Under the pieces are notes generated by a model. It worked only from the letters and a program-made list of their open reading frames with translations, had not been told where the DNA came from and made no database searches. From a virus (taxonomy: Duplodnaviria; Heunggongvirae; Uroviricota; Caudoviricetes), in IMG/VR virus record IMGVR_UViG_3300028833_000002: a DNA stretch of 64,000 nucleotides; one strand, given 5' to 3'. Shown in pieces: positions 14,770 through 44,192 of this stretch; the first letter of the stretch is position 1; every line of letters begins with the position of its first letter. The position numbers and the translations under genes were made by a program.

Positions 14770-14780
14770 GAGGTGAGATA

Positions 14781-17708
14781 ATGGAACGTTGGTTAGAATT
14801 TTTAAAAACAATTACTAACTTAAAGGTTCTTGTTCAAATGCTCGGTCTTACTCCTGAAAACGAGGAACGATTCTGGAAAGACCTCCTGGCTTTACTTAAA
14901 AGTCAGGAGCATCCAGTCGTTTTTGATGATGGAGAACTTACTGGATTGGTTGGATAGGTAATTAGTTCAGCAGACTTTGAAGACAGAGATGAAGAACCTT
15001 TTACAAGTGAACTTTACAACACACTTAAAGAGCTGATTTATAATGATACTAATGATAGTTTTTGGAATGAGTCAGTTCAGCAATTAATTAAATATTTCAT
15101 CAAGAACATTGAAGAAAGACCGGAGGACAAGATACTGATTCCAATAGGTGATGATAATGAACATAGTATTAGAATCAGTGATTTAAAGGCCGCAGATGCC
15201 GGCAATGGTTTTGATTATACACCTATTAATGATGAAGACTATTGGGTGCGTCCAAGGTATAATATAGATGATAGGGCTTACGATGAAGTAAGAGGTCACG
15301 ATGCTCTTAATGATGATTTATCAAATGATACGGCTGTACAATTCACAAAAGAAAAAGATATTGAAACATGGATTAGACTCCTTATGCCGCAATATGGTAG
15401 AAGAGTTTTAGTTGAGGATTTAGATAGAAACTTTTGGGTTATTGCTTAGACTATTAGTGCTATTTGCGCATACTTATTTGGCGACGAAAATCCAATAAAT
15501 AAAATGTGTGAAGGTATCGCAAGAGAAGTTTCTGAGATATGGGAAAATGTGTTATACCTTTGGTTAGAAATCGCGGCAATAACACAGAAGAAACAGAAAG
15601 GTATTAGAGTAATGAGTTTGTATGTGCCGCCAAGAGATAATGAACATGGCAGAAAATATGATGACTTTGAAAGTAAAAACAGTGCTATGTCATGGGATAT
15701 TGATGAATATGGTAATATGGTTATCACAGTTGAAGATTGGAATAGTTATAAGAATGAGATTGTGGATAGAATCGGTTATTTAACTGAGGATTTCGCAAAT
15801 TAGGACTTATGTGTTCTTCCAATTGTTAGACTTGATAATTATACAGTTGACTTCTATTCTACAGAATACTATCCTATGGTTTTATTCTATTCTAAAGATA
15901 CTAAGGAATGGACTTACAAGCGTATTAAGGAATAGATTGGTGATACATTAAAGGATTCTTTACTTATTTCGCCGCGATTTGAAGATAAGACAGACGGTAA
16001 GAAACGCTTTACTGATTAGATTATGGGACAGTTTAGAGTTTGTGATGGCGATATGGTAGTGTGGCCTTTCTCAAAAGTTCCAAGTCAAAGTAATGGTGAA
16101 GAAAATCCAACCTTAAAGTATATTGGTTGTTTACGTGTTAAACCAAACATTACTTTAAAGGAGAATGAAACAGAGATAGAAAATCTTGAATTATCTGTTT
16201 ATGATACATTTGCTATGATTTCTACTTCACATGAGGGAGAAATGGTAGACCGAGACTATAGTTTTATAGGTAAATATAGTTTAGTTCCTAGCAATGATGA
16301 CAGCCTTGTGCTTACTTATCAGGCTGATTCAGAACAGGCTGAACAGAGAGAAGAAGAATATGAAGATGACGCTATTCCTTGGCGAGAGCTAAAGGCTTGG
16401 TACGGCGGCGAAGTGGCATCATGGATGTTAGAAACTGCTTCTATCATTTCTTCTGATAATCTGTTTAACAATCAGGCTTATGTTCTTAAAATAGGAAATT
16501 ATCTACCAGAAAATGGCGATGATTTTATTATGGCTTCTGTTGATGATAGTGGCACTTTCAAATACACATCTATGTATGGAAACGTCACAAGAAAATCAGG
16601 AACGGGCCGCAACACCAAATACTATAGACTTAGATGGGACACTTACCAACCGGAAAATGATGGCGGGCCAGATGAAGCTGTTAAAAACAATAAAATTTGT
16701 TATGCAAAAGACCCGGAAAAACGACCATGCACATATCCAACAAAAGCTCATATAGAATATGATGGACTTATCGCGGCGAAGAATTTCATCAAAGCAAATG
16801 CAGGAACTGTAGGTAAGAACCCATGCTTCATTGCGACAACAATTGGCTTAACTCCGTGGTCAGGTACGGGAAGAACAGGTAGCGACGTTTTCTGGGATGT
16901 ATCATTCTTGCCGGCACTATATTTCTATATTCCTACCATAGAGTCATTAACTGGTATGCCATAGGAAACAGAGGGCTATGATTTTTCTCCATACATCAAA
17001 ACCTATACAGAGAATGAAGCCATTTATTTGGTTAATGATTAGCTTAATGCTGATGAAAGACCAGACGGGGACGGCACAGTCTATACCGAAGAAAATGGTC
17101 AAAAGAAAGAAATCGGCAAAATTATCGCTTGCTTACCTATGAATAGATATGAAAGTTACTTTAGAAAGCTGGGTCTTGAAGCTGATGATGGAACTTATAT
17201 GGGTGACTCGCACTGGAGACAATTCTACATTACCAATAATGATGAAAACAACGTATGCTCCAAAGAAGATGTTAATGGTGGTGCAAAAGTGCCGGGCGGT
17301 ACAACAATTTACCAAGCGACTTTTACACCTCGTTTTTGCGGCATGGTAGAATACTTTGACGTACTTCGCCACAACGCATCAAACAGAACAGCATTACTTT
17401 GGGAAGACCAAATTGCAAAAGTTTCAGAAGCAGTAGTTTAGATAGACCAAGACGGCTACGAACAAACAGAAGAAGGCTCAATTAGGTCAGCAAAAAATGT
17501 TGCGTTACCATGGGAAGATAGAGAAGCCTATGAAACACAAAGGTCAACTATGGCAACTGGTTTCCAACAGTTGATGAAAGAAGAAGATGGAGAATGGCAC
17601 GAACGTCCGGAAGACATTTATGGTAATATAGAAAAATGCATCGGGAAAAATGCAGAATACTTCCATGGTAATACAAAACTTAATGGCGGCTTGTGTATAT
17701 ATAGTTAA
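14781..17708 (+). CDS. structural protein, paralogue C (~975 aa), about 8 in-frame TAG
   Basis: Frame 0 is open from 14781 to TAA 17706. Track ORFs 15246, 16023 and 17139 are in the same frame. A GAGGTGA ribosome-binding site is present. Confidence 0.55.
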
Positions 17709-21171: not shown

Positions 21172-22196
21172 TAGGTGCTATTTTCGCGGCAGCAATAATA
21201 CTTGGTTATTGTTTTTTCCATAACAAGTAGGTTAGGCATAAAGAGGCTATCATAGAAGCTGAATATGCACAGAGATTAATAGCCGAGATTTCCAACAATG
21301 TAGTTGCCGAAAAGAACAGACTAATTGATGAACAGGTTTCGGAACACCTAAGACAAGCAACTGAGGACGTTTCCAAATAGCTAAAAACGGTAACAGATGA
21401 ATTTGAAGCTCGTAAGACTCAAATCTATCAACAATTACAGTGTTTGGAAAATGAACTAAGCACAGCGATTGCTAACAAAAACGCTCGTATAAGGGAAATA
21501 ACTGAGGAACTTTCTCGACAATCAGCCGTGGTTGCAACTGAAAATACTGAGAAACTTAATGAGTTAAAGCAACAGTTTCTTGCCGCGAAAGAACAGATAC
21601 AATCAGAGTTCACAACATTCTCTGATGACATCGCGGCGAAAAAGGAAACTCTTCAAAAGGAGCTTGCGGCGCAAGAAGCAAAACAAAAAGAAATTATAGA
21701 GCAATACAAGCGTGCCGAACAAATCAGAGAACAAGAAAACTTCTATCGTATTGTTCTCACTGACAATGAAAAAGAAGATGTTTGTAAACTCCGTAAAATG
21801 GCAGAGGACTTACATGACCCTACCGCCCTTTATAAACTTATCTATGAACAATATTACAAGCGTCCATTCAATGAACTTATGGGGCGCATCATTGGTGAAG
21901 ATACTAGCGTAGGTATCTATAAAATCACCAACATAGAAAACGGCAAATGCTACATAGGTCAAACTAAACAAGAATTTAAAACACGTTTTCTTCAGCACGT
22001 AAAGAGAGGTCTTAAGGTAGAACCATCTACTAAAAATAAACTCTATGCGGCAATGTGGGAAGATGGTGTGGAAAACTTTACCTTTGAAATCTTGGCGCAT
22101 TGTGAAGCAGAAGACCTTAATACTAAGGAAAAAGAATTTATAAACTTCTATAAAGCCAATGAGTGGGGATACAATTCCACTACCGGCGGCTCATAA
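21159..22196 (+). CDS. N-terminal TM helix, coiled coil and C-terminal GIY-YIG nuclease domain; 2 in-frame TAG
   Basis: ATG 21159 is in frame with track ORF 21444. GIYKITNIENGKCYIGQT, R and H are present. A TM helix lies at the N-terminus. Confidence 0.55.
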
Positions 22197-23028: not shown

Positions 23029-23991
23029 ATGAAGCATAACTTCTCAATATATGATGAAAGACCAATTTTTACAATGCTTATGGGTTTACCGGGCAGTGGT
23101 AAGTCTACATTTGCAAATGAAGTAGTAACTGCTGACAGCCTTACATCTGTTCTTATATCTTCTGATTCTCTTAGAGAGGAATTGTTTGGAGATGTAAATG
23201 ACCAGACACATAACACAGAAGTATTTGAAGAAATGCATAGAAGAACTATTGTTGCACTTAAAGAAGGTAAGGACGTATTCTATGATGCGACAAATCTTTC
23301 CGGCAAGCGTAGAAAGGCTTTCCTTAATTCTCTTAATGGTTTAAAGAATAAGGTTCATAAGAGAATTATGGTATTTGCTACTCCAGTAGAACTTTGTATT
23401 GCAAGAAATCACCGTAGAGAACGTAAGGTTCCTACAGAAGTAATTGAAAGAATGTATAAAACACTTACAATGCCGCGATATACTGAAGGATGGGATAGTA
23501 TTGTTTACTGGAGAGATGATTCCGTAAATATTACACCAGACTTCTATTACGTAGACAGCATTGATAATGACCACGATAGCCACTGGCACCCAAGAAATAT
23601 CGCAGACCACATGGATGCTGTTTATGATTACGTAAGCAAGAATTGTGAGGAACGTGGTCTTAAATGTGATACAATTCTTAGAGCCGCAAAGTATCATGAC
23701 GTAGGTAAGCCTTACGTTAAGTCAAGAATCAACAATCGCGGCGAAGTTGATATAGAATCACACTATTACAACCACGAAAATGTAGGTGCATATATCCTTG
23801 CTTGTTGCGGCGAAAGCGACTACACAGTTGCTCTTGTTCAGTATCACATGGATATTATGCGTGAATCACATGATAAGAATGACTTCGACCCAAGAGCTAC
23901 AAAGGCTTATAAGGATTTCGTAGATGGCTATGGTGAAAAGATGGCTGAATGTTTAGTGCTTATCAATGAAGCAGATAGGAAAATGGCATAA
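23029..23991 (+). CDS. P-loop polynucleotide-kinase-like N-domain fused to an HD phosphohydrolase domain (Pnkp-like RNA/DNA end-healing enzyme)
   Basis: A Walker A motif GLPGSGKST is present. The C-terminal half carries an HD motif (KYHDVGKP) and additional His/Asp residues. Confidence 0.6.
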   Translation: MKHNFSIYDERPIFTMLMGLPGSGKSTFANEVVTADSLTSVLISSDSLREELFGDVNDQTHNTEVFEEMHRRTIVALKEGKDVFYDATNLSGKRRKAFLNSLNGLKNKVHKRIMVFATPVELCIARNHRRERKVPTEVIERMYKTLTMPRYTEGWDSIVYWRDDSVNITPDFYYVDSIDNDHDSHWHPRNIADHMDAVYDYVSKNCEERGLKCDTILRAAKYHDVGKPYVKSRINNRGEVDIESHYYNHENVGAYILACCGESDYTVALVQYHMDIMRESHDKNDFDPRATKAYKDFVDGYGEKMAECLVLINEADRKMA

Positions 23992-24713: not shown

Positions 24714-24788
24714 TTCCACGTCGTCAAGAGGCTCAAGACACCGCTCTCTAAAAGCGGCATTTCGAAGGTTCGAATCCTTCCGTGGAAA
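24714..24788 (+). tRNA. amber suppressor tRNA, anticodon CUA (reads UAG); Gln-like body with U1:A72
   Basis: The acceptor is ttccacg/cgtggaa. The anticodon arm is ccgct-ctCTAaa-agcgg. The T-arm is gaagg-ttcgaat-ccttc. It has its own promoter at 24398. Confidence 0.7.
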
Positions 24789-27710: not shown

Positions 27711-28052
27711 ATGGAAAAGCGTCAGGCTTTCTATCTCTATCTTGATGATATACGTGAGATAGACCCTATATGCAACCAATTTAAATATTACAAGCATTGT
27801 CATGTGGTTGATGAAGCAAAGTTTTTTGTTCAGTCAGCTATTAGTATTGGAGCGACTGAAATTTGGTTTGACCTTGACCACGACCTTGGCGACTATGCCC
27901 CATATGGTGGGGATGGTATTGAGTTAGTTAATTGGCTTGTTGAGATGTATCATGACAAGAACGTTGACTTCAAATTCCATTTCCATTCTATGAACCCTGT
28001 CGGCGTTCAGAATATGAGAAATGCAATTGAAAAGTATTGGGAGGAATTTTAA
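27711..28052 (+). CDS. hypothetical protein
   Basis: A ribosome-binding site is present. Confidence 0.5.
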   Translation: MEKRQAFYLYLDDIREIDPICNQFKYYKHCHVVDEAKFFVQSAISIGATEIWFDLDHDLGDYAPYGGDGIELVNWLVEMYHDKNVDFKFHFHSMNPVGVQNMRNAIEKYWEEF

Positions 28053-28534
28053 TGATTTATGTAAAAGGTAATCTTTTGGAATCACCTGTTCATATTATCG
28101 CCCATCAGGTAAACTGTCTGGGCATCATGGGTGGCGGCATTGCTCTTCAGATTAAGAATAAGTGGCCAAGGGTATTTGAGGACTATAAGGAATTTATTGA
28201 GGATTGGGAATACTGTAATGATGGAGAGCTTCCGCTCGGTCATTGTTTACCAGTAAGACTTAATAATGAACAAAGAACTGTTATTAATATCTTTGGTCAG
28301 AATGGAATTGGCGGCATGGCAACAGACTACGATGCTGTAAGAAAGGCTTTTATTGAACTTAAAGAATATCTCGTTACCGATAAAATATATAGGCATGACT
28401 CACAAATTCCAGTTGGTATCCCATACAAAATGGGTTGTGGACTTGGCGGCGGAGATTGGGACACTTATCGCAAAATGCTTCAGGAGCTTGAAGACGAATA
28501 CAATTTCCTTTTTATTGCTCACGTTTTGGGATAA
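28052..28534 (+). CDS. Macro domain protein (ADP-ribose / Appr-1''-p processing)
   Basis: The macro signature is HQVNCLGIMGGGIALQI. The start is at ATG 28052 after a GGGAGGA ribosome-binding site. Confidence 0.6.
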   Translation: MIYVKGNLLESPVHIIAHQVNCLGIMGGGIALQIKNKWPRVFEDYKEFIEDWEYCNDGELPLGHCLPVRLNNEQRTVINIFGQNGIGGMATDYDAVRKAFIELKEYLVTDKIYRHDSQIPVGIPYKMGCGLGGGDWDTYRKMLQELEDEYNFLFIAHVLG

Positions 28535-28605: not shown

Positions 28606-28902
28606 ATGTTTACTTGTAAAGAGTGCGATTTCTACCTTCAGAAATTTAAAGGACAATGCTCCGACCCTAGTGAAAACTGCGGACACAAGAGTGATTGCTA
28701 TGGTTGGTGCGATAAATATGACATAGATGTCTGTGGCTACGGTTCTCGTGATTGTGTTACAATAACATCTTGCGGCGAATGCAAGAACTTTAAACTCTAT
28801 GAGGACGGTCCTCATAATGAGTATGAAGGCTATTGTACAGTAGATGGTATGTGTAGACATGACGGAGCGGGAGCGGGGTGTGAAGATTTTGAAGAAAGAT
28901 GA
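28606..28902 (+). CDS. Cys-rich small protein
   Basis: Its own promoter copy lies upstream. Confidence 0.5.
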   Translation: MFTCKECDFYLQKFKGQCSDPSENCGHKSDCYGWCDKYDIDVCGYGSRDCVTITSCGECKNFKLYEDGPHNEYEGYCTVDGMCRHDGAGAGCEDFEER

Positions 28903-28906
28903 AAAT

Positions 28907-29113
28907 ATGCTTGATAATTGGAAAACCAATATACTTGACAATTGGAGAGCTGTAGATATAGAAGGTATTAAATCCGTAATAGCATATCGCGGTCATATTT
29001 TTCTCGACATTGAGGAATTACATCAATGGAAAATAGAAAATGAGTGGAATGGTATTGATATTGCTGTAACCAAAGAAGATATATTAAGAGAAGGAGAAAT
29101 ATATAATGACTAA
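28907..29113 (+). CDS. hypothetical protein Confidence 0.4.
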   Translation: MLDNWKTNILDNWRAVDIEGIKSVIAYRGHIFLDIEELHQWKIENEWNGIDIAVTKEDILREGEIYND

Positions 29114-29918
29114 AGATTCATTAGGTAATAGAATGAAAACTTATGAGGCTGTTCCAAAGAATTTCCTCATGAGAAAAAACCCTGTTATCATTAGGCTGGA
29201 TGGCAAGGCCTTTCATACGTTCACTCGTGGTTTTGAAAAGCCGTTCGATAAAATCATTGAAACAGCCATGACACAAACCATGCTTTATCTTTGTAAAAAC
29301 ATACAGGGTTGTGTTCTTGGCTACACCCAGTCTGACGAGATTACTCTTATTCTCTGTGACTATCAGAAAGTTGATACAGCCGCATGGTTTGATTACAATG
29401 TTCAGAAAATGGTTTCTATCTCTGCGGCCATGGCGACATATGCTTTTAACATGGTTCTTGAAAATATCGCGGCGGATTTATTTGCCGAAGCTGGTAATCA
29501 GACAACTGAGATGACCGACCTCCTCATGAGAAAGATAGACAAGGGCGCATTCTTTGATGCACGTGCGTTCTCACTTCCTCGTAATGAGGTAATAAATTGT
29601 CTTATCTGGCGCCAGCAGGATGCAACTCGCAACTCAATTCAAGGCCTTGCGCAGTCGCTCTATTCTCACAAGGAACTTCAGGGCATTAGTTGTAATGAAC
29701 TTCAGGACAAGATGTTTACTGAAAAGGGTGTAAACTGGAATGACCTTACGACTTATCAGAAGCGTGGAGCGTGTGCTGTTCGTAAGATGGTAAACAAAAT
29801 ATCACCTACAAATGCAGTTGTCCCAAGATGTGATTGGGTTATAGATGATGACATTCCTATATTCACGCAAAACAGGGACTATGTTGAAAGTAGGATTAAT
29901 TTTTCTGAAGGAGAATAA
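29106..29918 (+). CDS. Thg1-like protein (tRNA 3'-5' nucleotidyltransferase / tRNA-His guanylyltransferase family)
   Basis: The sequence reads RMKTYEAV...PVIIRLDGKAFHTFTRGFEKPFD...GYTQSDEITLIL. This matches Thg1/TLP signature motifs. Confidence 0.75.
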   Translation: MTKDSLGNRMKTYEAVPKNFLMRKNPVIIRLDGKAFHTFTRGFEKPFDKIIETAMTQTMLYLCKNIQGCVLGYTQSDEITLILCDYQKVDTAAWFDYNVQKMVSISAAMATYAFNMVLENIAADLFAEAGNQTTEMTDLLMRKIDKGAFFDARAFSLPRNEVINCLIWRQQDATRNSIQGLAQSLYSHKELQGISCNELQDKMFTEKGVNWNDLTTYQKRGACAVRKMVNKISPTNAVVPRCDWVIDDDIPIFTQNRDYVESRINFSEGE

Positions 29919-29923
29919 AATTC

Positions 29924-29952
29924 TTTACTTTCTTTTAAAATTATGTTATAAT
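29924..29952 (+). promoter_or_regulatory. promoter family copy
   Basis: TTTACT-17-TATGTTATAAT. Confidence 0.55.
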
Positions 29953-29984
29953 AATTATAGAAATTAAGAAAGGGAGAATGTCAA

Positions 29985-30311
29985 ATGGCTTTCAAAAAAG
30001 GACGTTGGCCGATTATACTTCGTCATAGAGAAGAAGACGGTTCAGAATCTATAATCGTAAAAGTAGTTGATGGTTATTTTTCTTCAGGTGATGTTTTCTA
30101 CCATAAAAACTACCCTAGCGAACGCTACTGGGTATTAACTGATAAAATGACTGGTAGAAGAATCTACGATGCTAAAACACGTAGAGATTGTGCCGACTGG
30201 TATGAATGGAACTATCAAAAGGTACTTGACAAAAGATTAACAGAAGAATATACAGAATGGTGTAATCAGTTCAACGAACTTGTGAAAGAAAGTGAGGTTC
30301 TCCATGAATAA
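29985..30311 (+). CDS. hypothetical protein
   Basis: Its own promoter copy lies upstream. Confidence 0.5.
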   Translation: MAFKKGRWPIILRHREEDGSESIIVKVVDGYFSSGDVFYHKNYPSERYWVLTDKMTGRRIYDAKTRRDCADWYEWNYQKVLDKRLTEEYTEWCNQFNELVKESEVLHE

Positions 30312-31553: not shown

Positions 31554-32450
31554 ATGGGTTTTTTCACAAGAGAACTGAAGAACGGTTCAACAGAAGTAAG
31601 AGTAGGTAGAATTGTAGGCGTATCAATTGCCGGCATTGTCGGACTGATTACATTATTCTCGTCATTCACTAAGGTAAACACCGGTTATACTGGTGTAAGA
31701 GTAATCCTTGGTGCAGTACAGGAATCTACATTCGAGCCGGGCTTCCATCTTATGACACCTTACGTAGAAACAGTTGTTAAGATGGATAATAAGGTCAGAA
31801 AGATTGAGGTTAATGCGGCTTCAACATCAAAAGACCTTCAGGCGGTAAGTTCTACACTCGCAATCAACTATCATCTTTCAAAGGAAAAGTCTGTTGATAT
31901 GTTTAAGTCAGTAGGTCTTTCATATGAAGACACACTTCTCCAGCCGGCAATTCAGGAAGCTACAAAGTCTATTATGGCGCAGTATAAGGCTGAGGAACTT
32001 ATTAAGAACAGAGCCGAAGTTTCTGTTGCCATCATGGATGAGATTAGCCGCAAGATGAATGGCTATGGTATTATGATTGATGAATTCAACATCACAAACT
32101 TTGACTTCTCACAGGCGTTTAATGATGCTATTGAGCAGAAGCTCGTGGCAGAACAGAATAAGATTAAGGCGGCAACAGAAAATGAACAGAGAGTTGCAGC
32201 CGCTGAAGCTGATGCCGCAGAAGCAAAGGCTAGAGCAGAAGGTGAAGCCGAAGCCGCAAGAGTTAAGGCTGAAGGCGAAGCCGCAGCAATTAGGGCAAGG
32301 GCCGCTGCAGAAGCAGAAGCTAACGAACAGATTAGAAAGTCTATTACTAATGAACTTATTGATTATAATAGAATTGAAAAGTGGAACGGTGAACTTCCTA
32401 ATATTATGACTGGTTCAGACGGCAATGTAATTGTTAATGCTACAAAGTAA
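31554..32450 (+). CDS. SPFH/Band-7 (stomatin/HflC-like) membrane protein
   Basis: An N-terminal TM helix is followed by an SPFH core and an Ala/Glu-rich coiled coil. Confidence 0.65.
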   Translation: MGFFTRELKNGSTEVRVGRIVGVSIAGIVGLITLFSSFTKVNTGYTGVRVILGAVQESTFEPGFHLMTPYVETVVKMDNKVRKIEVNAASTSKDLQAVSSTLAINYHLSKEKSVDMFKSVGLSYEDTLLQPAIQEATKSIMAQYKAEELIKNRAEVSVAIMDEISRKMNGYGIMIDEFNITNFDFSQAFNDAIEQKLVAEQNKIKAATENEQRVAAAEADAAEAKARAEGEAEAARVKAEGEAAAIRARAAAEAEANEQIRKSITNELIDYNRIEKWNGELPNIMTGSDGNVIVNATK

Positions 32451-32961: not shown

Positions 32962-33630
32962 ATGTATTATTACTATACTGACCGTTATCCGGATAATCGG
33001 TTTCATGAATACAAGTATCCGATTAAACTCGATGAAGAAGGTTTAATTCATGTGCTTGCTAGGATACTTGATTTCAGCAGACCTGGTGTGGTAAATCCAT
33101 ACTATGATGTGGATTTTAGCGGCACAGATTTGAGAATAGAATCAGAAAAGTTTTATTGTTTTTGTGAATATTCTGTAGTCAATTATGTTCCAAAGCGCTA
33201 TATCTTTACTAATGAAAATGGCGGCATAGTAGATATTCGTCAGTTTGAAGATAGGGTTAGAAAATACAGACATAAAAATATACCTCTTTATTGGCAGCAC
33301 TTAGGCACACCAAATCGCGGCGAAAAATGTATAACAAGCTATAGAGAACCATTTCGTTTCAGAGAGGGGCCAGTGCCGGGCCGACACCACCATCGAGGAT
33401 GGAATTACACACCTACCACACACTACTTTCAGAATTTTAAAAACAAAGAAAATCTTAGACCTGGCACAGTTCCAAACTCATGGGATTCTGCTGACACTAG
33501 ATGGTATAGACATTGCGATAAGTCTTGGAAGTCAAGCTACAAGTGCCGCCATCAGTGGGAGAAACATTTAATCAGAAGAAATAAAACAAATAATGCATAT
33601 GTAGATATGGAGGAAGATATAGATGAATAA
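32962..33630 (+). CDS. hypothetical protein with a His/Arg-rich C-terminus
   Basis: ATG 32962 follows a GAGAGGTG ribosome-binding site. The track start at 32956 is a GTG. Confidence 0.5.
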   Translation: MYYYYTDRYPDNRFHEYKYPIKLDEEGLIHVLARILDFSRPGVVNPYYDVDFSGTDLRIESEKFYCFCEYSVVNYVPKRYIFTNENGGIVDIRQFEDRVRKYRHKNIPLYWQHLGTPNRGEKCITSYREPFRFREGPVPGRHHHRGWNYTPTTHYFQNFKNKENLRPGTVPNSWDSADTRWYRHCDKSWKSSYKCRHQWEKHLIRRNKTNNAYVDMEEDIDE

Positions 33631-34201
33631 GACATTTTTTATTAGTGATACACATTTTAATCACAATAAGCCTTTTGTTTATGCGGCAAGAGGTTTTAAG
33701 ACAATTGAAGATATGAATGAAGCGATTATCACCAACTGGAACAGAGTGGTTGAAGATGGTGATAAGGTGTTTGTGCTTGGAGATTTTGCTCTTGGGATGG
33801 ACCTTGCAAATATTGAGGATATTCTTCTTGAACTTCACGGCGAAAAGCACTTTATCAGAGGAAACCATGATACGGACAGTAAGTGGGAATTCTATAAGAA
33901 TATGGATAGCGATGCTAATGTCTATGTTCATGACTGGACTTACATTACTAAAATGGGTAAGAACATGGTTTACATGAGCCATTTTCCTACTATGGTAAAT
34001 GACCACAGCCTTAAACCACTTAACAAGGCTATCATTAACCTTTTCGGACATACTCACAGCAAGGATAAGTTCTTTAAGGTTGGTGGTTATACTAATTACT
34101 TTATGTATAATGTAGCATGTGATGCTCATGACTGTACTCCGGTAAGTTGGGAAGACATCTATGCTGACATTAAAGGAGCTTTGGAAAAAGGAGGGGATTA
34201 A
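33623..34201 (+). CDS. calcineurin-like metallophosphoesterase
   Basis: DTHFNH, GDFALG, GNHD and GHTH are present. Confidence 0.7.
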   Translation: MNKTFFISDTHFNHNKPFVYAARGFKTIEDMNEAIITNWNRVVEDGDKVFVLGDFALGMDLANIEDILLELHGEKHFIRGNHDTDSKWEFYKNMDSDANVYVHDWTYITKMGKNMVYMSHFPTMVNDHSLKPLNKAIINLFGHTHSKDKFFKVGGYTNYFMYNVACDAHDCTPVSWEDIYADIKGALEKGGD

Positions 34202-34879
34202 ATGTTTGAACATATCTATATTACGGGCGATACGCATCACGATGTTGATATAGGAAAATTCATACCTTTTATGGATAAATGTGACACCACGCCGGAAAAA
34301 GACCTTATGATTATATTGGGCGACTGGGGCGGTGTTTGGTATGGTGATAAAAGGGATGATGCTGCATTAAAGATGTATGATAATTTTCCTTGGACGACTT
34401 TTGCTACCGCCGGCAACCATGAAAATTTCGATGCCCTCAGAAAATATCCTTTTGTTGATTTTTGCGGCGGAAGAGCGCGTAAGATTGGTGAACGTTGTTA
34501 CGTTGGTGTGACAGGAGAAATATACGATTTTTGCGGCAAAACATTTCTTAATGTCAATGGCGCAGATTCAACAGATAAGGCTTTTCGTATAGAAGGTGAA
34601 TCTTGGTGGCCACAGGAAAGAATTAAACAAGGACAAGTAGATTGTGCAATAGAAAACCTTAAAAAGTATGACAGAAAGGTAGACACAATAATATCTCATA
34701 CGGGCGGCAGTTTTGTTGTGTCTTGTCTTGGTTTTGAGATTACTCCATCTGACAAAATGCTTGACCAAATACTTGATAACTGTGATTATACATATCATTT
34801 TTGCGGCCATTATCACGTAGACATGAGATTGTCTTCTCAGGAAAGAATTTTTTATAATGACATTGTGGAGTTAAGATAA
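34202..34879 (+). CDS. calcineurin-like metallophosphoesterase (second, tandem)
   Basis: GDTHHD, LGDWGG, GNHENF and GHYH are present. Confidence 0.7.
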   Translation: MFEHIYITGDTHHDVDIGKFIPFMDKCDTTPEKDLMIILGDWGGVWYGDKRDDAALKMYDNFPWTTFATAGNHENFDALRKYPFVDFCGGRARKIGERCYVGVTGEIYDFCGKTFLNVNGADSTDKAFRIEGESWWPQERIKQGQVDCAIENLKKYDRKVDTIISHTGGSFVVSCLGFEITPSDKMLDQILDNCDYTYHFCGHYHVDMRLSSQERIFYNDIVELR

Positions 34880-38819: not shown

Positions 38820-39710
38820 ATGGAATTCAAGAAATATATTGATATTGAACGCTTAAAAGAAAAATATGCTATGGCTTTTAAGCCTGGTGAAATGATTACA
38901 GTTTCCGAGAAAATTGATGGCAGCAATGCCTCGTTTGACGGTAATCTTAATGCCTTCTCTCGTCGTAAGGTATTAGACGAAACAAATACCCTTAATGGCT
39001 TTTATGATTTTGTGAAAACACTTGATGCCACAAAGGTTATGGAGGTTCTTGGTGAGAACTTTATTGTCTTTGGTGAATGGTTGTGCAAGCATACTGTAAA
39101 ATACCCAGAAGATAAGATGCATAAGTTCTACGCCTTTGACGTATGGAATAAGGAAACAGCACAATACCTTCCTTGGAGTGAAGCAAAAAAGATTATCGCA
39201 GAACTTGGTCTTAACACAGTACCAATTTTTTATGAAGGCCCATTCACATCTTGGGATGACATTAATAAATTGGTTGGACAGACAAAAATGGGGGCTTCTC
39301 CTTGCGGGGAAGGACAGGTCGTAAAATCACAGGACAGACTTGACAACAAGTCCTCAAACACCCCGGCATATGTAAAAATTGTTGATGCACGTTTCTCTGA
39401 GGTAAAGGGTCAGAAGGAACAGAAGATGGTTGACCCTGAAAAAATTGCTGCAAAGCATGCTCAGGAAGCTCTTGCTGCAACTATCGTAACAGAAAGACGA
39501 GTAGAAAAACTCATACAGAAAATAATAGAAGACGGTCTTATTCCAGCAGAATGGGATGAAAAGGACCTTGGTACAATTGCAAAGCATCTTCCAAAGGCTG
39601 TATATGCGGACTGCGTAAAGGAAGAACCGGAAACAGTTGCTCAGATTGAAAACTTTGGTAAGATTGCGGCTGGCATTGCAATGAAGCTTGCAAGAGGACT
39701 GGTAAAATGA
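38820..39710 (+). CDS. ATP-dependent RNA ligase, Rnl2-like
   Basis: Nucleotidyltransferase motifs are present: I EKIDGSN, III FGEWL, IV EGQVVK, V YVKIV. Confidence 0.65.
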   Translation: MEFKKYIDIERLKEKYAMAFKPGEMITVSEKIDGSNASFDGNLNAFSRRKVLDETNTLNGFYDFVKTLDATKVMEVLGENFIVFGEWLCKHTVKYPEDKMHKFYAFDVWNKETAQYLPWSEAKKIIAELGLNTVPIFYEGPFTSWDDINKLVGQTKMGASPCGEGQVVKSQDRLDNKSSNTPAYVKIVDARFSEVKGQKEQKMVDPEKIAAKHAQEALAATIVTERRVEKLIQKIIEDGLIPAEWDEKDLGTIAKHLPKAVYADCVKEEPETVAQIENFGKIAAGIAMKLARGLVK

Positions 39711-41465: not shown

Positions 41466-42602
41466 ATGACGGACGTAAAAATTGTAACTGGATTAAATTA
41501 TGGTGATGAGTCAAAAGGACTCGTTGCCAATGCAGTAAGCACACCTACTTGCCTGAATATCTTACCATCTAATTCTTGTCAGAGAGCACACACAGTAGTT
41601 GAAAATGGAGTGAGAAAAGTGTTCCGTCATTTTGGTAGTGGTACACTTAAAGGAGCGGCTACCTATTTCACAGATAAGTTTCTTGTAAATCCTGCTATGT
41701 TTAGACAGGAATGGGAAGAACTTGCTGCAATGGGTATCACTCCGAAGGTGTATGTACGTTTAGGGGCTATGTGTGTAACTCCTATTGATATGTTTGCAAA
41801 TGTGAATGTTGAGGAACGTCGCGGCGAAAAATCTCATTCATCTACTGGTTGCGGTGTTTGGGAAACTATATGCCGTCATAAGACTTTAGCATTTTCACAG
41901 GGTATGTATGCGTGTGAAGATATAGTTGCATATTATGAAGAAGTCTTAAAAGATAAAAATGGCATTCTGCCGGAAAATGTAAAAGAGTTCTTGCATGGTG
42001 ATTGTCTTAAAGATAATATAAATGAAGACTTTACGTGGTTCTATGAACACGTTACCGTAATTAAAGACCAGTGGGAAGAAACACAACTTCTCCACTCTTA
42101 TCCACTTCTTGTGTTTGAGAATGGTCAGGGATTACTTCTTGATGATAGATATAGCTGCGATATTAACCATAATACCCCGGCATGTGTTGGCATGATAGAA
42201 GCTGAAAGAATACTTAATCAGAATTTTCTTAGAACAGAAGTTAATGTTGAAGCACTTTATGTAACACGTTCATATTACACTCGTCATGGTAAGGGACAGA
42301 TAGGCCTATGGAGTAATTGTGAATGTGATAAGGACGAAATTAATCCATGTATGTTTGATGCCACAAATGTGCCGAACCCAAATCAGGGCACTCTACGTTA
42401 TGGTAAAATTGATGAACTTGAAGCCAAGACAATCGCGGCGAGAGCGGTCAATGATAGTATAAGTCCATTCTTTGATGTTACCACTTCTATGGTGGTTACT
42501 CATTGTAATGAATATATGAATAATTATTTAATTGATGCCGCAAACGACCAGAAATTAAATCTTTATGTTTCTTATGACGAAACTAATATTCGTAAAGTTT
42601 AA
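41466..42602 (+). CDS. adenylosuccinate synthetase family protein (PurA/PurZ-like)
   Basis: GLNYGDESKG, QRAHTV, FENGQGLLLDDRYSCDINHNTP and YYTRHGKGQ match PurA blocks. The protein is short (378 aa). Confidence 0.7.
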   Translation: MTDVKIVTGLNYGDESKGLVANAVSTPTCLNILPSNSCQRAHTVVENGVRKVFRHFGSGTLKGAATYFTDKFLVNPAMFRQEWEELAAMGITPKVYVRLGAMCVTPIDMFANVNVEERRGEKSHSSTGCGVWETICRHKTLAFSQGMYACEDIVAYYEEVLKDKNGILPENVKEFLHGDCLKDNINEDFTWFYEHVTVIKDQWEETQLLHSYPLLVFENGQGLLLDDRYSCDINHNTPACVGMIEAERILNQNFLRTEVNVEALYVTRSYYTRHGKGQIGLWSNCECDKDEINPCMFDATNVPNPNQGTLRYGKIDELEAKTIAARAVNDSISPFFDVTTSMVVTHCNEYMNNYLIDAANDQKLNLYVSYDETNIRKV

Positions 42603-42604: not shown

Positions 42605-42634
42605 CTTTACTTTTTTTGAAAAAAGTGATATAAT
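42605..42634 (+). promoter_or_regulatory. promoter family copy driving the tRNA-Leu/His/UAA operon
   Basis: TTTACT-18-GTGATATAAT. Confidence 0.5.
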
Positions 42635-42677: not shown

Positions 42678-42757
42678 GCTCTCGTGGTGGAATTGGTAGA
42701 CACGTATGCCTTAGGAGCATATGTTAATTCGTGTGGGTTCGAGTCCCACCGGGAGCA
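42678..42757 (+). tRNA. tRNA-Leu(UAG), type II
   Basis: The loop is ctTAGga, the variable arm is long, and the T-loop is GTTCGAGTC. Confidence 0.7.
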
Positions 42758-42759
42758 CT

Positions 42760-42831
42760 GTGTACGTAGTGTAATGGTTAACATGGAAGGATGTGGCCCT
42801 TCCGATGTGGGTCCAATTCCCGCCGTACACC
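42760..42831 (+). tRNA. tRNA-His(GUG); CCA encoded at 42832-42834
   Basis: The acceptor is gtgtacg/cgtacac. The loop is atGTGgc. Confidence 0.6.
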
Positions 42832-42835
42832 CCAC

Positions 42836-42909
42836 CCCCCTGTAATCCAACCGGCAGAGATAGCGCTCTTAAACAGCGTCCAGTACCAGTTCAAATCTGG
42901 TCAGGGGGA
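42836..42909 (+). tRNA. type-I (short variable arm) tRNA with anticodon UAA; Gln-like D-arm
   Basis: The acceptor is ccccctg/caggggg. The anticodon arm is gcgct-ctTAAac-agcgt. The T-arm is accag-ttcaaat-ctggt. Confidence 0.5.
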
Positions 42910-43249
42910 CTTTGATATGACAATGTATGCGAAACATGGACTCGATTAATATAGGCGTTAATTCCTCCGCGGGAGCTGCTTCTCCATGTGCTGTAGGCTC
43001 CTCATTGTCACACAAACGCTCCACAGCGAAAGGTGGCGTAATTCATTCTAGGCAACGTCAAAGCCAAATCAGGAGCTTGGTGAATGTCATTAGAGGACAA
43101 GAAAAGAGCATACCTTTTCTATCCCATTCTTAGCCGAATCTTAAACCAAGGCGTGGATGTGGAAGGGCTTGGCCCGGATGGCAACGCAGACCAACTCACG
43201 AGTGTCTAGGCGTTGAGTAGGTTTAACTTCGGTGAAAATGATTATAACG

Positions 43250-43277
43250 GGGCGAGAATTTATCTCGTCCTTTTTTA
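43250..43277 (+). terminator. rho-independent terminator
   Basis: Hairpin gggcgaga/tctcgtcc followed by TTTTTTATTTT. Confidence 0.55.
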
Positions 43278-43299
43278 TTTTGGAAAATTTTAGTTTCTA

Positions 43300-43328
43300 T
43301 TGACTTTTACTTTAAATTGTGTTATAAT
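43300..43328 (+). promoter_or_regulatory. promoter family copy
   Basis: TTGACT-17-TGTGTTATAAT followed by the leader. Confidence 0.6.
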
Positions 43329-43377
43329 ATATATAGAAAGTTAAGAGAAAGATAAAAACAGAAAGGACGTATCGCTT

Positions 43378-43746
43378 ATGTTAGAATACTTTAACTACGA
43401 AAACTTAGAATTCAAGGGTTTAATCTACAGCCAGAACGTTCCACTTGCCGCAGTTAATGAAGATGAACACATCTGTTGCGGTAGACTTACAGCGTTTGTT
43501 AAGGCTTTTAACAGCAAGGGTAGTTTATCAATTGAATACGGTTTCAGCGATGATGACGACTGGGAACAGTTCCGTGGTTTCAGATGCGAAAACGAAGTAG
43601 AACAGAAGCGTATGTTCGAGGAAATCGTTAGAATTACAAAAGACTTTTGTTCGTTCTACAAGGTAGGTTTTATTCCGGACTTCTACGAAGACTGGTCAAA
43701 GGTCGTAGATTCTACTCTCGGTAAGGCTTCAAAGTATGATTATTAA
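43378..43746 (+). CDS. hypothetical protein
   Basis: A promoter copy lies upstream. Confidence 0.5.
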   Translation: MLEYFNYENLEFKGLIYSQNVPLAAVNEDEHICCGRLTAFVKAFNSKGSLSIEYGFSDDDDWEQFRGFRCENEVEQKRMFEEIVRITKDFCSFYKVGFIPDFYEDWSKVVDSTLGKASKYDY

Positions 43747-43765
43747 TTGAAAGGAATATGAAATT

Positions 43766-44053
43766 ATGAAAATGTGTAAGAATTGCAGAAAAGAATATGG
43801 TTGGAGCAGATATGATGAATATTGCTGCAAGGAATGTTGGGAAGCCAATTATTGGGAGAAGGCTCTTGATAGCAAGGCTATTATAATTGGCGGTCATTGT
43901 TATCATGCTTATGGCGGCAAGTTTGATAAGTCAAAGAAGATTAAGATTAGAATGAATGATGGTACGCTTATTGAAACCTATGAACTGTTCGATGGCGGCA
44001 AGATACCGAGAAAGTTCCATATGAAAGATAATGCAAAGTTTGTTAAGTGGTGA
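43766..44053 (+). CDS. Cys-rich protein Confidence 0.45.
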   Translation: MKMCKNCRKEYGWSRYDEYCCKECWEANYWEKALDSKAIIIGGHCYHAYGGKFDKSKKIKIRMNDGTLIETYELFDGGKIPRKFHMKDNAKFVKW

Positions 44054-44068
44054 GCAATCACCACATAT

Positions 44069-44142
44069 GCTCTCGTAGTCCAATGGCAGTAGACAGTGCA
44101 CTCAAAATGCATCCAGTGTGGGTTCGAATCCCATCGAGAGCA
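44069..44142 (+). tRNA. type-I tRNA with anticodon CAA; Gln-like D-arm (paralogue of 42836)
   Basis: The acceptor is gctctcg/cgagagc. The anticodon arm is gtgca-ctCAAaa-tgcat. The T-arm is gtggg-ttcgaat-cccat. Confidence 0.5.
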
Positions 44143-44163
44143 CTTGGAAAAATCTGGTAGGTG

Positions 44164-44192
44164 TTGACTTTTACTTTAGATTGTGTTATAAT
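44164..44192 (+). promoter_or_regulatory. promoter family copy
   Basis: CTGGTAGGTGTTGACT-17-TGTGTTATAAT followed by the leader. Confidence 0.6.

What the first reader, a model, noticed from the sequence alone, without database searches (positions are those of the whole stretch)
29106..29918. Phage-encoded Thg1-like protein (reverse, 3'-5' polymerase)
The signature RLDGKAFHTFTRGFEKPFD...GYTQSDEITLI is present, and the size is 270 aa. These match the Thg1/TLP family, which adds nucleotides to tRNA 5' ends.

Bacterial TLPs repair 5'-truncated tRNAs. A phage copy beside a large tRNA complement is unusual. It could repair phage or host tRNAs. It could also add G-1 to the phage tRNA-His, whose gene (42760) lacks a templated G-1.
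Basis: partly seen in the sequence, partly recalled or inferred. Interest (0 to 1): 0.75.

Follow-up and report, generated by a model that had tools for sequence, protein, structure and literature searches.

The report
Phage Thg1-like tRNA 5'-end polymerase
This large rumen/gut phage carries an intact copy of a reverse-direction (3'-5') RNA polymerase that repairs or extends tRNA 5' ends; such genes turn out to be common in big phages, but here it sits in a genome whose own histidine tRNA lacks the extra 5' G the enzyme could add, a link that comparison with relatives supports only in part.

Summary
ORF 29106..29918 (+, 270 aa) is a full-length, catalytically complete bacterial-type Thg1-like protein (TLP): Pfam PF04446 E 2e-30, phrog_4717 E 4e-91, BtTLP structure 4kgk E 5e-64, and all published catalytic residues conserved. 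The phage tRNA-His (42760..42834) does have U, not G, at -1, plus C73 and an encoded CCA.

The claim that this is unusual is not supported. Homologues are annotated in 163 deposited phages and in at least 7,967 metagenomic protein clusters.

The gene lies among RNA end-healing and sealing genes (Pnk-HD, cREC, Macro, two phosphoesterases, two RNA ligases) next to a 26-tRNA array.

The G-1 idea fits the biochemistry: BtTLP adds G-1 opposite C73 as efficiently as yeast Thg1 works on its natural substrate. Comparative support is partial. In eight close syntenic lineages, every TLP or TLP remnant sits in a U-1 genome and none in a G-1 genome. However, one U-1 genome has no TLP in the region and another has a frameshifted copy. 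Outside this clade, TLP-positive phages include G-1-encoding ones and one with no tRNAs.

Verdict: a new member of a known but experimentally unstudied phage family. It most likely works in tRNA 5'-end repair or maturation, with tRNA-His G-1 addition as a testable specific role.

The parts
29106..29918 (+). Thg1-like protein (TLP) gene, 270 aa, intact. Catalytic carboxylates D32, D77, E78, with R30, E14, H37, K45, S76, K101, R153 and N176 conserved. A ~25-residue helical insertion lies at ~120-147 relative to BtTLP.
29092..29096 (+). Shine-Dalgarno-like AGGAG, 9 nt upstream of the TLP ATG. The upstream ORF overlaps the TLP start by 8 nt.
28844..29113 (+). 89-aa ORF of unknown function. Together with the TLP it forms the 28897..29969 cassette that is cleanly absent in relatives L332 and L275. 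L330 retains this ORF and lacks only the TLP.
42760..42834 (+). Phage tRNA-His(GUG): G1-C72 perfect 7-bp stem, U at -1 (42759), C73 (42831), encoded CCA (42832..42834). It is the only one of the 26 tRNAs in the window with an encoded CCA, and it is the candidate substrate for templated G-1 addition.
42678..42758 (+). tRNA-Leu(UAG), 1-2 nt upstream of tRNA-His. With tRNA-Leu(UAA) at 42836..42910 it forms a tight Leu-His-Leu cluster.
42606..42634 (+). Promoter-like site with an extended -10 (TTTACT-17-TG-TATAAT) upstream of the Leu-His-Leu tRNA cluster. This is a consensus match only.
23029..23991 (+). P-loop kinase (AAA_33) fused to an HD phosphohydrolase: a polynucleotide-kinase-like RNA end-healing enzyme.
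27711..28052 (+). cREC_REC domain protein (predicted cyclic-phosphate processing).
28037..28534 (+). Macro-domain protein (Pfam E 2e-4, just under the cutoff; phrog_335 E 2e-35).
33623..34879 (+). Two adjacent calcineurin-type metallophosphoesterases (33623..34201 and 34202..34879).
38820..39710 (+). RNA ligase, PF09414 (Rnl2-type).
44413..45534 (+). RNA ligase, PF09511 (T4 Rnl1-type).

Best explanation
The ORF encodes an active bacterial-type Thg1-like protein, a 3'-5' RNA polymerase that the phage carries as an accessory tRNA-maintenance enzyme. By analogy with BtTLP, it would activate a tRNA 5'-monophosphate with ATP and then add NTPs in the 3'-5' direction by two-metal catalysis (D32/D77), each nucleotide templated by the opposite base of the 3' acceptor strand. 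In this phage the most specific substrate is its own tRNA-His. That tRNA is transcribed with U at -1, so RNase P should release it starting at G+1. C73 followed by CCA then provides the template for adding the G-1 that histidyl-tRNA synthetase recognises. The same enzyme probably also rebuilds 5'-truncated acceptor stems of other tRNAs, working with the neighbouring kinase/phosphatase and ligase genes. Shown: family membership, an intact active site, the fold, the U-1/C73 gene structure, and the neighbourhood. Inferred: enzymatic activity, the substrates, and any dependence of tRNA-His on the TLP.
For: Identity and active site:
- PF04446 E 2e-30; phrog_4717 E 4e-91; BtTLP 4kgk E 5e-64.
- BtTLP D30/D75/E76, R28, E12, H35 and R131 (PMC3701042) map to D32/D77/E78, R30, E14, H37 and R153. 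D32, E78, R30, E14, H37 and R153 are invariant in both alignments; D77 is invariant among the 10 and present in at least 90% of the 25.
- AF2 model pLDDT 82.5; its top 32 PDB fold hits are all Thg1/TLP structures.

Substrate logic:
- The tRNA-His gene has U-1, C73 and CCA.
- BtTLP adds G-1 opposite C73 with kcat/KM 5500 M-1 s-1, against 108 for A73, and repairs 5'-truncated tRNAs 5-160 times better still (PMC3061083).
- Dictyostelium DdiTLP2 matures mitochondrial tRNA-His by adding G-1 opposite C73 (PMC6471195).

Context:
- Pnk-HD, cREC, Macro, two phosphoesterases and two RNA ligases lie on the same strand within +/-16 kb, next to 26 tRNAs.
- RNA-repair genes recur beside TLPs in unrelated phages: phiA009 (Rnl1), Kalah2 (Pnk), a Vibrio phage (COG0617), FNU3 (RNA ligase).
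- 18 of 51 TLP lineages have a homologue of one of the window's repair genes within 10 kb.
- The TLP lies inside tRNA arrays, next to tRNA-His, in two diverged lineages.

Clade comparison:
- Intact TLPs (window, L338, and L327 at a different slot) and a decayed one (L336) are all in U-1/C73/CCA genomes. The three G-1 lineages (L330, L275, L325/326) have none in the slots that could be seen.
- In L327 a deleted copy coexists with a second TLP, estimated at ~65% identity (only its C-terminal 17 residues were seen). This suggests the function was kept.
Against: - L332 is a 186-kb contig, 87-94% identical and syntenic. It has the U-1/C73/CCA allele with a compensatory stem change but no TLP in 20.7 kb covering both slots.
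- L336 carries the same allele with a frameshifted TLP, and 212-216-aa disrupted forms recur on ~17 contigs. So the U-1 tRNA-His stays under selection without the local TLP.
- The gene has been lost or gained at least three separate times, with different boundaries.
- The within-clade association is not significant (Fisher one-sided 0.18, or 0.07 if remnants count), and the lineages are not independent.
- Beyond the clade, TLP-positive phages have G-1 encoded (L001/L002, L238, L126/L032, FNU3, L245) or no tRNA genes at all (PMBT8).
- About 27% of 59 background phage tRNA-His genes lack G at -1, against 3 of 8 TLP-positive lineages, so there is no enrichment.
- No phage TLP has been assayed.
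Confidence: 0.5

Rival explanations
1. Repair only. The TLP is a general tRNA 5'-end repair or quality-control enzyme of the phage's RNA-repair arsenal, acting on host or phage tRNAs whose 5' ends are damaged or mis-processed during infection. It has no special role in tRNA-His maturation. The U-1 tRNA-His either works without G-1 or receives it some other way.
For: - BtTLP prefers 5'-truncated tRNAs of any identity over -1 addition by 5-160-fold.
- PMBT8 has a TLP and no tRNA genes.
- Many TLP-positive phages encode G-1.
- L332 and L336 keep a conserved U-1 tRNA-His without a functional local TLP.
- The TLP sits among Pnk, ligase and phosphoesterase genes here and in other phages.
- The jumbo-phage survey lists Thg1 among RNA-repair enzymes (PMC7824862).
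Against: - No host nuclease is known that truncates tRNA 5' ends during phage defence. The known tRNA-targeting defence nucleases I am aware of (own knowledge, not checked here) mostly cut the anticodon loop or arm.
- It leaves unexplained how a C73 tRNA-His without G-1 would be charged by a bacterial HisRS.
- Within the clade, the TLP is never found in G-1 genomes.
Confidence: 0.3
2. Obligate partnership. The U-1/C73/CCA tRNA-His allele depends strictly on the phage TLP, which is the only route to G-1, and tRNA-His maturation is the TLP's principal function in this phage lineage.
For: - All four TLP-bearing clade lineages have the U-1 allele and none of the three G-1 lineages shows a TLP.
- U-1 always comes with an encoded CCA and G-1 never does in this clade.
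- In L327, TLP function is retained through a second copy after the first was deleted.
Against: - L332 (no TLP) and the widespread frameshifted forms (L336) keep an intact, compensatorily evolving U-1 tRNA-His.
- The numbers are small and phylogenetically linked.
- A TLP elsewhere in those genomes could not be excluded or shown.
Confidence: 0.12
3. The enzyme acts on a non-tRNA RNA, for example the ROOL RNA or other structured RNAs encoded in the array. Alternatively it is a nearly neutral, decaying accessory gene with no important role.
For: - TLPs do not need the His anticodon and have broad RNA recognition (PMC6471195).
- A ROOL RNA and a Ro60-like protein are encoded nearby.
- Deletion and frameshifting are frequent among close relatives.
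Against: - The window's copy is intact, with the catalytic and nucleotide-binding residues conserved across sequences 58-97% identical (only D77 falls short of invariance, at >=90% of 25). It also has a good RBS.
- Thousands of intact homologues persist on phage-sized contigs.
- No non-tRNA substrate is established for bacterial-type TLPs.
Confidence: 0.08

Closest known systems
Bacillus thuringiensis TLP (BtTLP; PDB 4kgk/4kgm)
   Same: Closest solved relative: phmmer E 5e-64, 45% identity in the alignment, Foldseek E 1e-24 with target TM 0.84-0.87. It shares all three carboxylates and the triphosphate- and ribose-contacting residues. Like BtTLP, the query lacks the eukaryotic HINNLYN motif.
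   Different: The window protein is phage-encoded. It has a ~25-residue helical insertion at ~120-147 that is absent in BtTLP. It sits in a genome whose tRNA-His lacks an encoded G-1, whereas according to PMC3061083 all bacteria apart from about 20 alpha-proteobacteria encode G-1. Its activity has not been measured.
phrog_4717 phage 'tRNA-His guanylyltransferase' (e.g. Bacillus phage Bc431v3 gp143, Fusobacterium phage Fnu1/FNU3, Staphylococcus phage PMBT8)
   Same: Same protein family (E 4e-91; 43-47% identity). Typically found in large phages with tRNA arrays and RNA-repair genes. FNU3 even shares the layout TLP - two small ORFs - prohibitin/SPFH.
   Different: No deposited phage is more than 60% identical, and the window has no nucleotide match in the phage collection. 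tRNA-His status varies across these phages: Bc431v3 is C-1/A73, FNU3 is G-1/A73, and PMBT8 has no tRNAs.
Dictyostelium DdiTLP2 (mitochondrial tRNA-His G-1 addition opposite C73)
   Same: The only TLP with a demonstrated physiological role in adding G-1 opposite C73. That is the reaction proposed here.
   Different: It is a eukaryotic organellar enzyme. Sequence relatedness to the phage protein was not examined, and the phage case is not demonstrated.
Eukaryotic Thg1 (yeast, human, Candida; PDB 3otb, 3wbz, 5xox)
   Same: Same fold and catalytic carboxylates, and the same three-step chemistry is expected: adenylylation, nucleotidyl transfer, pyrophosphate removal.
   Different: Only ~20% identity (E 1e-7 to 1e-9). 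The query has WRQQDATRNSIQ where Thg1 has WRQVDCHINNLYN. Thg1 adds G-1 without a template opposite A73 and recognises the GUG anticodon; TLPs are template-dependent.
Phage T4 Pnkp / Rnl1 tRNA repair pathway
   Same: The window encodes a kinase-phosphohydrolase, an Rnl1-type and an Rnl2-type ligase and phosphoesterases around the TLP. This is a healing-and-sealing toolkit beside a tRNA array.
   Different: From my own knowledge (not checked here), T4 repairs anticodon-loop breaks and has no 3'-5' polymerase. A step that requires rebuilding of 5' acceptor ends is not part of that pathway.

Membership tests
Thg1/TLP superfamily (PF04446) | Significant match to the Thg1 catalytic-domain profile above the curated cutoff | tested here: met
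   105.7 bits against a cutoff of 29.2, E 2.2e-30, covering profile positions 2-130 of 130.
Thg1/TLP superfamily (PF04446) | Three conserved carboxylates (BtTLP D30, D75, E76 = hTHG1 D29, D76, E77) | tested here: met
   D32, D77 and E78 by gap-free alignment to 4kgk, using residue numbers from PMC3701042. All three are invariant in 10 diverse TLPs. In the 25-sequence alignment D32 and E78 are invariant and D77 is present in at least 90%.
Thg1/TLP superfamily (PF04446) | Residues for 5'-activation and nucleotidyl transfer (BtTLP R28, E12, H35, R131; the K/S/N of the activation step) | tested here: met
   R30, E14, H37, R153, S76, K101 and N176 are invariant, and K45 nearly so.
Thg1/TLP superfamily (PF04446) | Thg1-type fold (palm-like catalytic core plus C-terminal domain) | tested here: met
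   AF2 model pLDDT 82.5, pTM 0.84. The top 32 Foldseek PDB hits are all Thg1/TLP, the best being 4kgm at E 1e-24. Pfam's separate C-terminal model was not reported at E<=0.01, but residues 148-268 align to BtTLP 126-241.
Thg1/TLP superfamily (PF04446) | 3'-5' nucleotide addition activity | not testable with these tools
   Needs an enzyme assay.
Bacterial/archaeal-type TLP (as opposed to eukaryotic Thg1) | Closer to TLPs than to Thg1, and lacks the HINNLYN motif of eukaryotic Thg1 | tested here: met
   BtTLP E 5e-64 against Candida, human and yeast Thg1 at E 1e-9 to 1e-7. The query has WRQQDATRNSIQG where Candida Thg1 has WRQVDCHINNLYN.
Bacterial/archaeal-type TLP (as opposed to eukaryotic Thg1) | Preference for Watson-Crick templated addition and for 5'-truncated tRNAs | not testable with these tools
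   Known for BtTLP and MaTLP; inferred here.
phrog_4717 (phage tRNA-His guanylyltransferase) | Full-length profile match | tested here: met
   E 3.7e-91, residues 3-265 on profile positions 2-240 of 250.
Post-transcriptional G-1 addition pathway for tRNA-His | The tRNA-His gene lacks G at -1 | tested here: met
   Position 42759 is T. The register is fixed by U8, the 7-bp stem and the Rfam model.
Post-transcriptional G-1 addition pathway for tRNA-His | The discriminator can template G (C73) for a template-dependent TLP | tested here: met
   C at 42831, followed by an encoded CCA.
Post-transcriptional G-1 addition pathway for tRNA-His | The enzyme and the G-1-less tRNA-His gene co-occur across related genomes | tested here: inconclusive
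   Within the clade: TLP or a remnant in 4 of 5 U-1 lineages and in 0 of 3 G-1 lineages (p 0.07-0.18, lineages not independent), with L332 as a counter-case. Across phages there is no enrichment.
Post-transcriptional G-1 addition pathway for tRNA-His | The mature tRNA-His carries G-1, and this depends on the enzyme | not testable with these tools
   Needs 5'-end mapping in infected cells with and without the TLP.
Mitochondrial-type tRNA 5' editing | Encoded mismatches in the first three acceptor-stem pairs of several tRNAs | tested here: inconclusive
   Apart from the expected initiator C1xA72, only tRNA-Cys(GCA) (A2xC71) and an odd tRNA with anticodon ACA (U1xU72) have such mismatches. The other 23 stems, tRNA-His included, pair at positions 1-3.
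Phage RNA healing-and-sealing repair module | Kinase/phosphatase and RNA ligase genes co-located with the TLP | tested here: met
   Pnk-HD, cREC, Macro, two metallophosphoesterases, and Rnl2- and Rnl1-type ligases on the same strand. The same block is conserved in relatives.

The most novel reading that the evidence does not exclude
In this clade of ~180-190-kb TAG-recoded rumen/gut phages, one tRNA-His allele has given up its genome-encoded G-1 (U-1, C73, encoded CCA) and relies on a phage-borne TLP to install this HisRS identity element after transcription. That would be a self-contained tRNA-His maturation pathway of the eukaryote/organelle type carried by a bacterial virus. The gene and the allele would co-vary among near-identical genomes, and the TLP would be re-acquired at a second site when the first copy is lost.
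Probability: 0.3. Interest if true: 0.6.

Novelty: new member of a known kind. Interest (0 to 1): 0.42.

Why it matters
Bacterial-type TLPs have well-described in vitro chemistry, but no physiological role has been established for them in bacteria. The specialist review I read (2019) does not mention phages at all. This work shows that large phages are a major reservoir of TLPs: 163 deposited genomes and thousands of metagenomic clusters. In these phages the gene sits among tRNA arrays and RNA-repair genes. In one clade it behaves as a presence/absence cassette whose distribution tracks, imperfectly, a tRNA-His allele that lacks G-1. If the link is real, it gives a natural and genetically tractable system for asking what a TLP does in vivo, and it would be the first bacterial-world example of required post-transcriptional G-1 addition. 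If the link is not real, phage TLPs point to an unrecognised kind of tRNA 5'-end damage during infection. As a gene annotation, the finding itself is ordinary.

Tried and rejected
- **Megablast of 24 kb of the window** against deposited phages: no match.
- **Locating phage tRNA-His genes by similarity** to the window's tRNA-His: only 4 weak hits, not usable.
- **Exact 30-mer of the window's tRNA-His** in viral contigs: no match.
- **Phosphoesterase anchor in viral contigs**: no relatives, so the clade is absent from IMG/VR.
- **Sequence or contig-name overlap** between background loci lacking G-1 and TLP-positive loci: none.
- **5'-editing idea.** The mismatched acceptor stem of the tRNA-His next to the TLP in L001/L002 suggested TLP-dependent 5' editing. 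I rejected this as a TLP-specific feature. U4xU69 recurs in 10 unique phage tRNA-His genes, and stem mismatches are generally about 3 times more frequent in phage tRNA-His (27/92 against 137/1154).
- **'L275 and L277 lack a TLP'** turned out to be premature. The L277/L327 lineage has a second TLP just outside the first locus frame, so absence is claimed only where both slots were seen.
- **The L336 frameshift** might have been an assembly error. I rejected that because 212-216-aa forms recur as at least 7 distinct sequences on ~17 contigs.
- **PurZ identity** of the adenylosuccinate-synthetase-like gene: only weak PurA matches in the PDB, unresolved.
- **A TLP elsewhere in L332's 185,807-bp genome**: not found among the cluster members listed, but the listing is incomplete.
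Full report
**1. Observation**

The ORF at 29106..29918 (+) exists as described. It is 270 aa and contains RLDGKAFHTFTRGFEKPFD and GYTQSDEITLI. AGGAG lies 9 nt before the ATG. An independent gene call on an ENA contig gives the identical product, flagged PF04446.

The protein matches Pfam Thg1 at E 2.2e-30 (105.7 bits, cutoff 29.2) and the phage family phrog_4717 'tRNA-His guanylyltransferase' at E 3.7e-91. Its best solved relative is the Bacillus thuringiensis Thg1-like protein (4kgk, E 4.7e-64). Eukaryotic Thg1s match at only 1e-9 to 1e-7.

The window holds 26 tRNA genes. ARAGORN and the Rfam tRNA model both place tRNA-His +1 at 42760 and N73 at 42831. It has a perfect 7-bp stem with U8 in register, T at -1 (42759), C73, and an encoded CCA. 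It is the only tRNA in the window with an encoded CCA.

**2. Is it a real, active-looking TLP?**

The BtTLP structure paper names D30, D75 and E76 as the conserved carboxylates (D30 and D75 bind the two Mg2+). It also names R28, E12, H35 and R131 as nucleotide contacts (PMC3701042). The gap-free alignment to 4kgk (query 4-119 = chain 2-117) maps these to D32, D77, E78, R30, E14 and H37, and R131 maps to R153.

All of these, plus S76, K101 and N176, are invariant in an alignment of ten phage and bacterial TLPs. In a second alignment of 25 metagenomic homologues (58-97% identical) they are again invariant, except D77, which is present in at least 90%.

Where Candida Thg1 has WRQVDCHINNLYN, the query has WRQQDATRNSIQG. 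It is therefore of the TLP type, not the eukaryotic Thg1 type.

An AlphaFold2 model (pLDDT 82.5, pTM 0.84) finds only Thg1/TLP structures among its top 32 PDB matches, with BtTLP best at E 1e-24 and target TM 0.84-0.87.

The one visible difference from BtTLP is an insertion of about 25 residues (~120-147), predicted as a helical extension. It is shared by the viral-metagenome relatives (L001, L004, L052) and, in shorter form, by the Fusobacterium phage.

**3. Is a phage copy unusual?**

No.
- tblastn finds homologues in 163 deposited phage records (Bacillus 46, Prevotella/Lak 15, Caulobacter 13, Mycobacterium 11, and others), mostly already annotated as tRNA-His guanylyltransferase.
- The gene was noted in Bacillus phage Bc431v3 in 2013, and as a sporadic RNA-repair enzyme of jumbo phages in 2021.
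- In the large protein collection the search saturated at 7,967 clusters with E<=1e-40, many of them on contigs of 150-205 kb.
- No phage TLP appears to have been studied experimentally. The 2019 Thg1/TLP review does not mention phages.

This particular phage is new to the deposited collections: there is no megablast match and all TLP hits are below 60% identity. Its own contig is 191,580 bp. The closest 'bacterial' hits are contigs of 120-180 kb binned as Eubacterium/Eubacteriales MAGs from yak rumen and gut. These are most likely phage genomes, and they hint at a Clostridia host.

**4. Context**

All genes in the region are on the + strand. Around the TLP lie:
- a P-loop kinase-HD phosphohydrolase (23029..23991);
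- a suppressor tRNA(CUA) (24714..24788);
- a cREC 'cyclic-phosphate processing' domain protein (27711..28052);
- a Macro-domain protein (28037..28534);
- an SPFH/Band-7 protein (31554..32450);
- two metallophosphoesterases (33623..34879);
- an Rnl2-type RNA ligase (38820..39710);
- an Rnl1-type RNA ligase (44413..45534);
- the tRNA array (42678..59683);
- a Ro60/TROVE-like protein (60099..61754).

RNA-repair genes recur next to TLPs in unrelated phages:
- Aeromonas phiA009: Rnl1 plus an ATPase 1.5 kb downstream.
- Mycobacterium Kalah2: polynucleotide kinase two genes downstream.
- A Vibrio phage: a COG0617 nucleotidyltransferase 1.3 kb downstream.
- Fusobacterium FNU3: an RNA ligase, and the same layout TLP - two ORFs - prohibitin.

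Across 51 TLP lineages, 18 have a recognisable homologue of one of the window's repair genes within 10 kb. For the background tRNA-His loci the figure is 9 of 120, but those loci are about 2.2 times shorter, so the enrichment is roughly two-fold.

In two diverged lineages (L001/L002, and L234/L238) the TLP lies inside the tRNA array, 120-490 bp from tRNA-His.

**5. The G-1 hypothesis: biochemistry**

BtTLP adds G-1 opposite C73 with kcat/KM 5500 M-1 s-1, the same as yeast Thg1 on its natural substrate. Opposite A73 the value is 108. It repairs 5'-truncated tRNAs 5-160 times more efficiently still (PMC3061083). Dictyostelium DdiTLP2 provides a physiological precedent for G-1 addition opposite C73. 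According to the same paper, all bacteria encode G-1 except about 20 alpha-proteobacteria.

A C73 tRNA-His with U at -1 is therefore both in need of G-1 and the preferred -1 substrate of this enzyme type. A promoter-like site with an extended -10 lies about 44 bp upstream of the Leu-His-Leu cluster.

**6. The G-1 hypothesis: comparison across phages**

It does not hold as a general rule.
- Staphylococcus phage PMBT8 (complete, 88 kb) has a TLP and no tRNA genes.

The TLP-positive lineages with a visible tRNA-His are mixed:

| Lineage | -1 / N73 |
|---|---|
| Window | U / C |
| L234 | U / U |
| Bc431v3 | C / A |
| L001/L002 | G / C |
| L238 | G / C |
| L126 (same contig as L032) | G / C |
| FNU3 | G / A |
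| L245 | G / A |

- In an unbiased pattern-based sample, 59 unique well-formed phage tRNA-His genes comprised 38 G-1/C73, 7 U-1/C73 and 14 others (5 of them G-1/A73). About 27% lack G at -1.
- Three of eight TLP-positive lineages lacking G-1 is no enrichment over that background.

**7. The G-1 hypothesis: comparison inside the clade**

Anchoring on genes that lie between the TLP and the tRNA-His recovered syntenic relatives about 85-92% identical at the nucleotide level. Slot 1 is the window's TLP position. The alternative slot is two small genes upstream of cREC.

| Lineage | TLP slot 1 | Alternative slot | tRNA-His allele |
|---|---|---|---|
| Window | intact, 270 aa | none | U-1/C73/CCA |
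| L338 (180 kb) | intact, 271 aa | not seen (locus begins inside the slot-1 TLP) | U-1/C73/CCA |
| L327/L328 | deletion scar (RBS plus first 21 codons kept) | 264-aa TLP | U-1/C73/CCA, on the same contig |
| L336 (156 kb) | 87% identical, +1 frameshift at codon 31/32 | none | U-1/C73/CCA |
| L332 (186 kb) | empty | empty | U-1/C73/CCA, with a compensatory stem change |
| L330/L331 | empty | empty | G-1/C73, no CCA (a different allele) |
| L275 | empty | not seen | G-1/C73, no CCA |
| L325/L326 | empty | not seen | G-1/C73, no CCA |

Every TLP or TLP remnant is in a U-1 genome and none is in a G-1 genome. In this clade U-1 always comes with an encoded CCA, and G-1 never does. However, the U-1 allele persists, with compensatory substitutions, in one genome with no TLP in the 20.7 kb examined and in one with a frameshifted copy.

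The frameshifted form is real and widespread: at least 7 distinct sequences of 212-216 aa on about 17 contigs within the window's own 90% cluster.

Fisher one-sided p is 0.18 for functional TLPs and 0.07 if remnants are counted. The lineages are not independent.

The TLP-less relatives break homology with the window at three different boundary pairs: 29098/29951, 28897/29969 and 29167/30275. These lie at RBS-like AAGAAAGG microhomologies. The gene is therefore an accessory cassette that has been gained or lost repeatedly.

**8. Conclusion**

The gene is a genuine, intact bacterial-type TLP, and a new member of a known phage family whose function has never been tested.

The best-supported reading (confidence about 0.5) is a tRNA 5'-end repair and maturation enzyme within the phage's tRNA and RNA-repair region. 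Templated G-1 addition to the phage's own U-1/C73/CCA tRNA-His is its most specific plausible job.

The alternatives are:
- a pure repair role with no tRNA-His connection (0.3);
- strict dependence of tRNA-His on the TLP (0.12), which L332 and L336 weaken;
- a non-tRNA substrate, or near-neutrality (0.08).

The decisive data are complete-genome searches of the TLP-less U-1 relatives, an in vitro G-1 addition assay, and 5'-end mapping of the tRNA-His.

Noticed in passing
window 1..17708 and 24714..24788: The phage appears to be TAG-recoded. Reading TAG as sense merges runs of same-frame ORFs into long proteins: 1763..5365 (7 ORFs, 1200 aa), 10717..14769 (4 ORFs, 1350 aa), 14766..17708 (6 ORFs, 980 aa). 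No such merging occurs in 18-64 kb. A suppressor tRNA(CUA) is encoded at 24714..24788, and relatives L001/L002 have two.
   Followed up: partly
window 53631..54219 (+): A full-length ROOL RNA (Rfam RF03087, 285 bits against a gathering score of 99, E 3e-64) sits inside the tRNA array, between tRNA-Leu(AAG) and tRNA-Ile.
   Followed up: no
window 60099..61754 (+): A 551-aa Ro60/TROVE-like protein (phrog_850 E 8e-49; Pfam TROVE E 2.5e-8) lies at the end of the tRNA array. No Y-RNA-like partner was looked for.
   Followed up: no
window 41466..42602 (+): A divergent adenylosuccinate-synthetase-like protein lies directly upstream of the Leu-His-Leu tRNA cluster and is conserved there in all clade relatives. 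Matches: phrog_1211 E 5.5e-34; Pfam PF00709 E 1.8e-14; only weak PurA matches in the PDB. Whether it is PurZ-like (2-aminoadenine DNA) is unresolved.
   Followed up: partly
window 42836..42910 and 44069..44143: Two tRNAs with Leu anticodons (UAA, CAA) are only 75 nt long with a 5-nt variable loop, which is class-I architecture. tRNA-Leu(UAG) and tRNA-Leu(AAG) in the window, and tRNA-Leu(CAA) in L234/L236/L238, have the usual long variable arm.
   Followed up: no
loci L089-L208 (background sample of phage tRNA-His genes): About 27% of 59 unique, well-formed phage tRNA-His genes lack G at -1 (7 are U-1/C73). This is unexpected given the near-universal encoded G-1 of bacteria.
   Followed up: partly
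loci L001-L080, L089-L208 and window: Acceptor-stem mismatches are about 3 times more frequent in phage tRNA-His than in other phage tRNAs (27/92 against 137/1154, p 2e-5). A recurrent U4xU69 occurs in 10 unique genes, all of them G-1/C73.
   Followed up: partly
window 28897..30275; L275, L277/L327, L330, L332, L336: The TLP locus is a hotspot of presence/absence variation among ~90%-identical genomes. There are three different deletion or insertion boundary sets, one frameshifted allele that is widespread, and in one lineage a second TLP (~65% identical by inference) two genes upstream of cREC.
   Followed up: yes
window 53267..53340 and 58569..58642: tRNA-Cys(GCA) has an A2xC71 mismatch, and an odd tRNA with anticodon ACA has U1xU72. 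These are the only non-initiator mismatches in the first three acceptor pairs in the window. ARAGORN also calls a tRNA with a 2-base anticodon at 54662..54732, and Rfam finds an extra tRNA at 54320..54393.
   Followed up: no
window 21444..22196; L275 14883..15080; L338 4360..5775: Homing-endonuclease-type genes are scattered through the region. There is a GIY-YIG gene in the window, and a LAGLIDADG domain fused into the phosphoesterase in L338. In the G-1 relatives L275 and L325/L326, an insert of ~770 bp separates tRNA-Leu(UAG) from tRNA-His; in L275 it holds a 65-aa HTH-like ORF.
   Followed up: no
window 31554..32450; L084 21389..22198: An SPFH/Band-7 (prohibitin-like) gene lies ~1.6 kb downstream of the TLP in the window. 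The same arrangement is seen in Fusobacterium phage FNU3 and in all clade relatives. Its function in phages is unknown.
   Followed up: no
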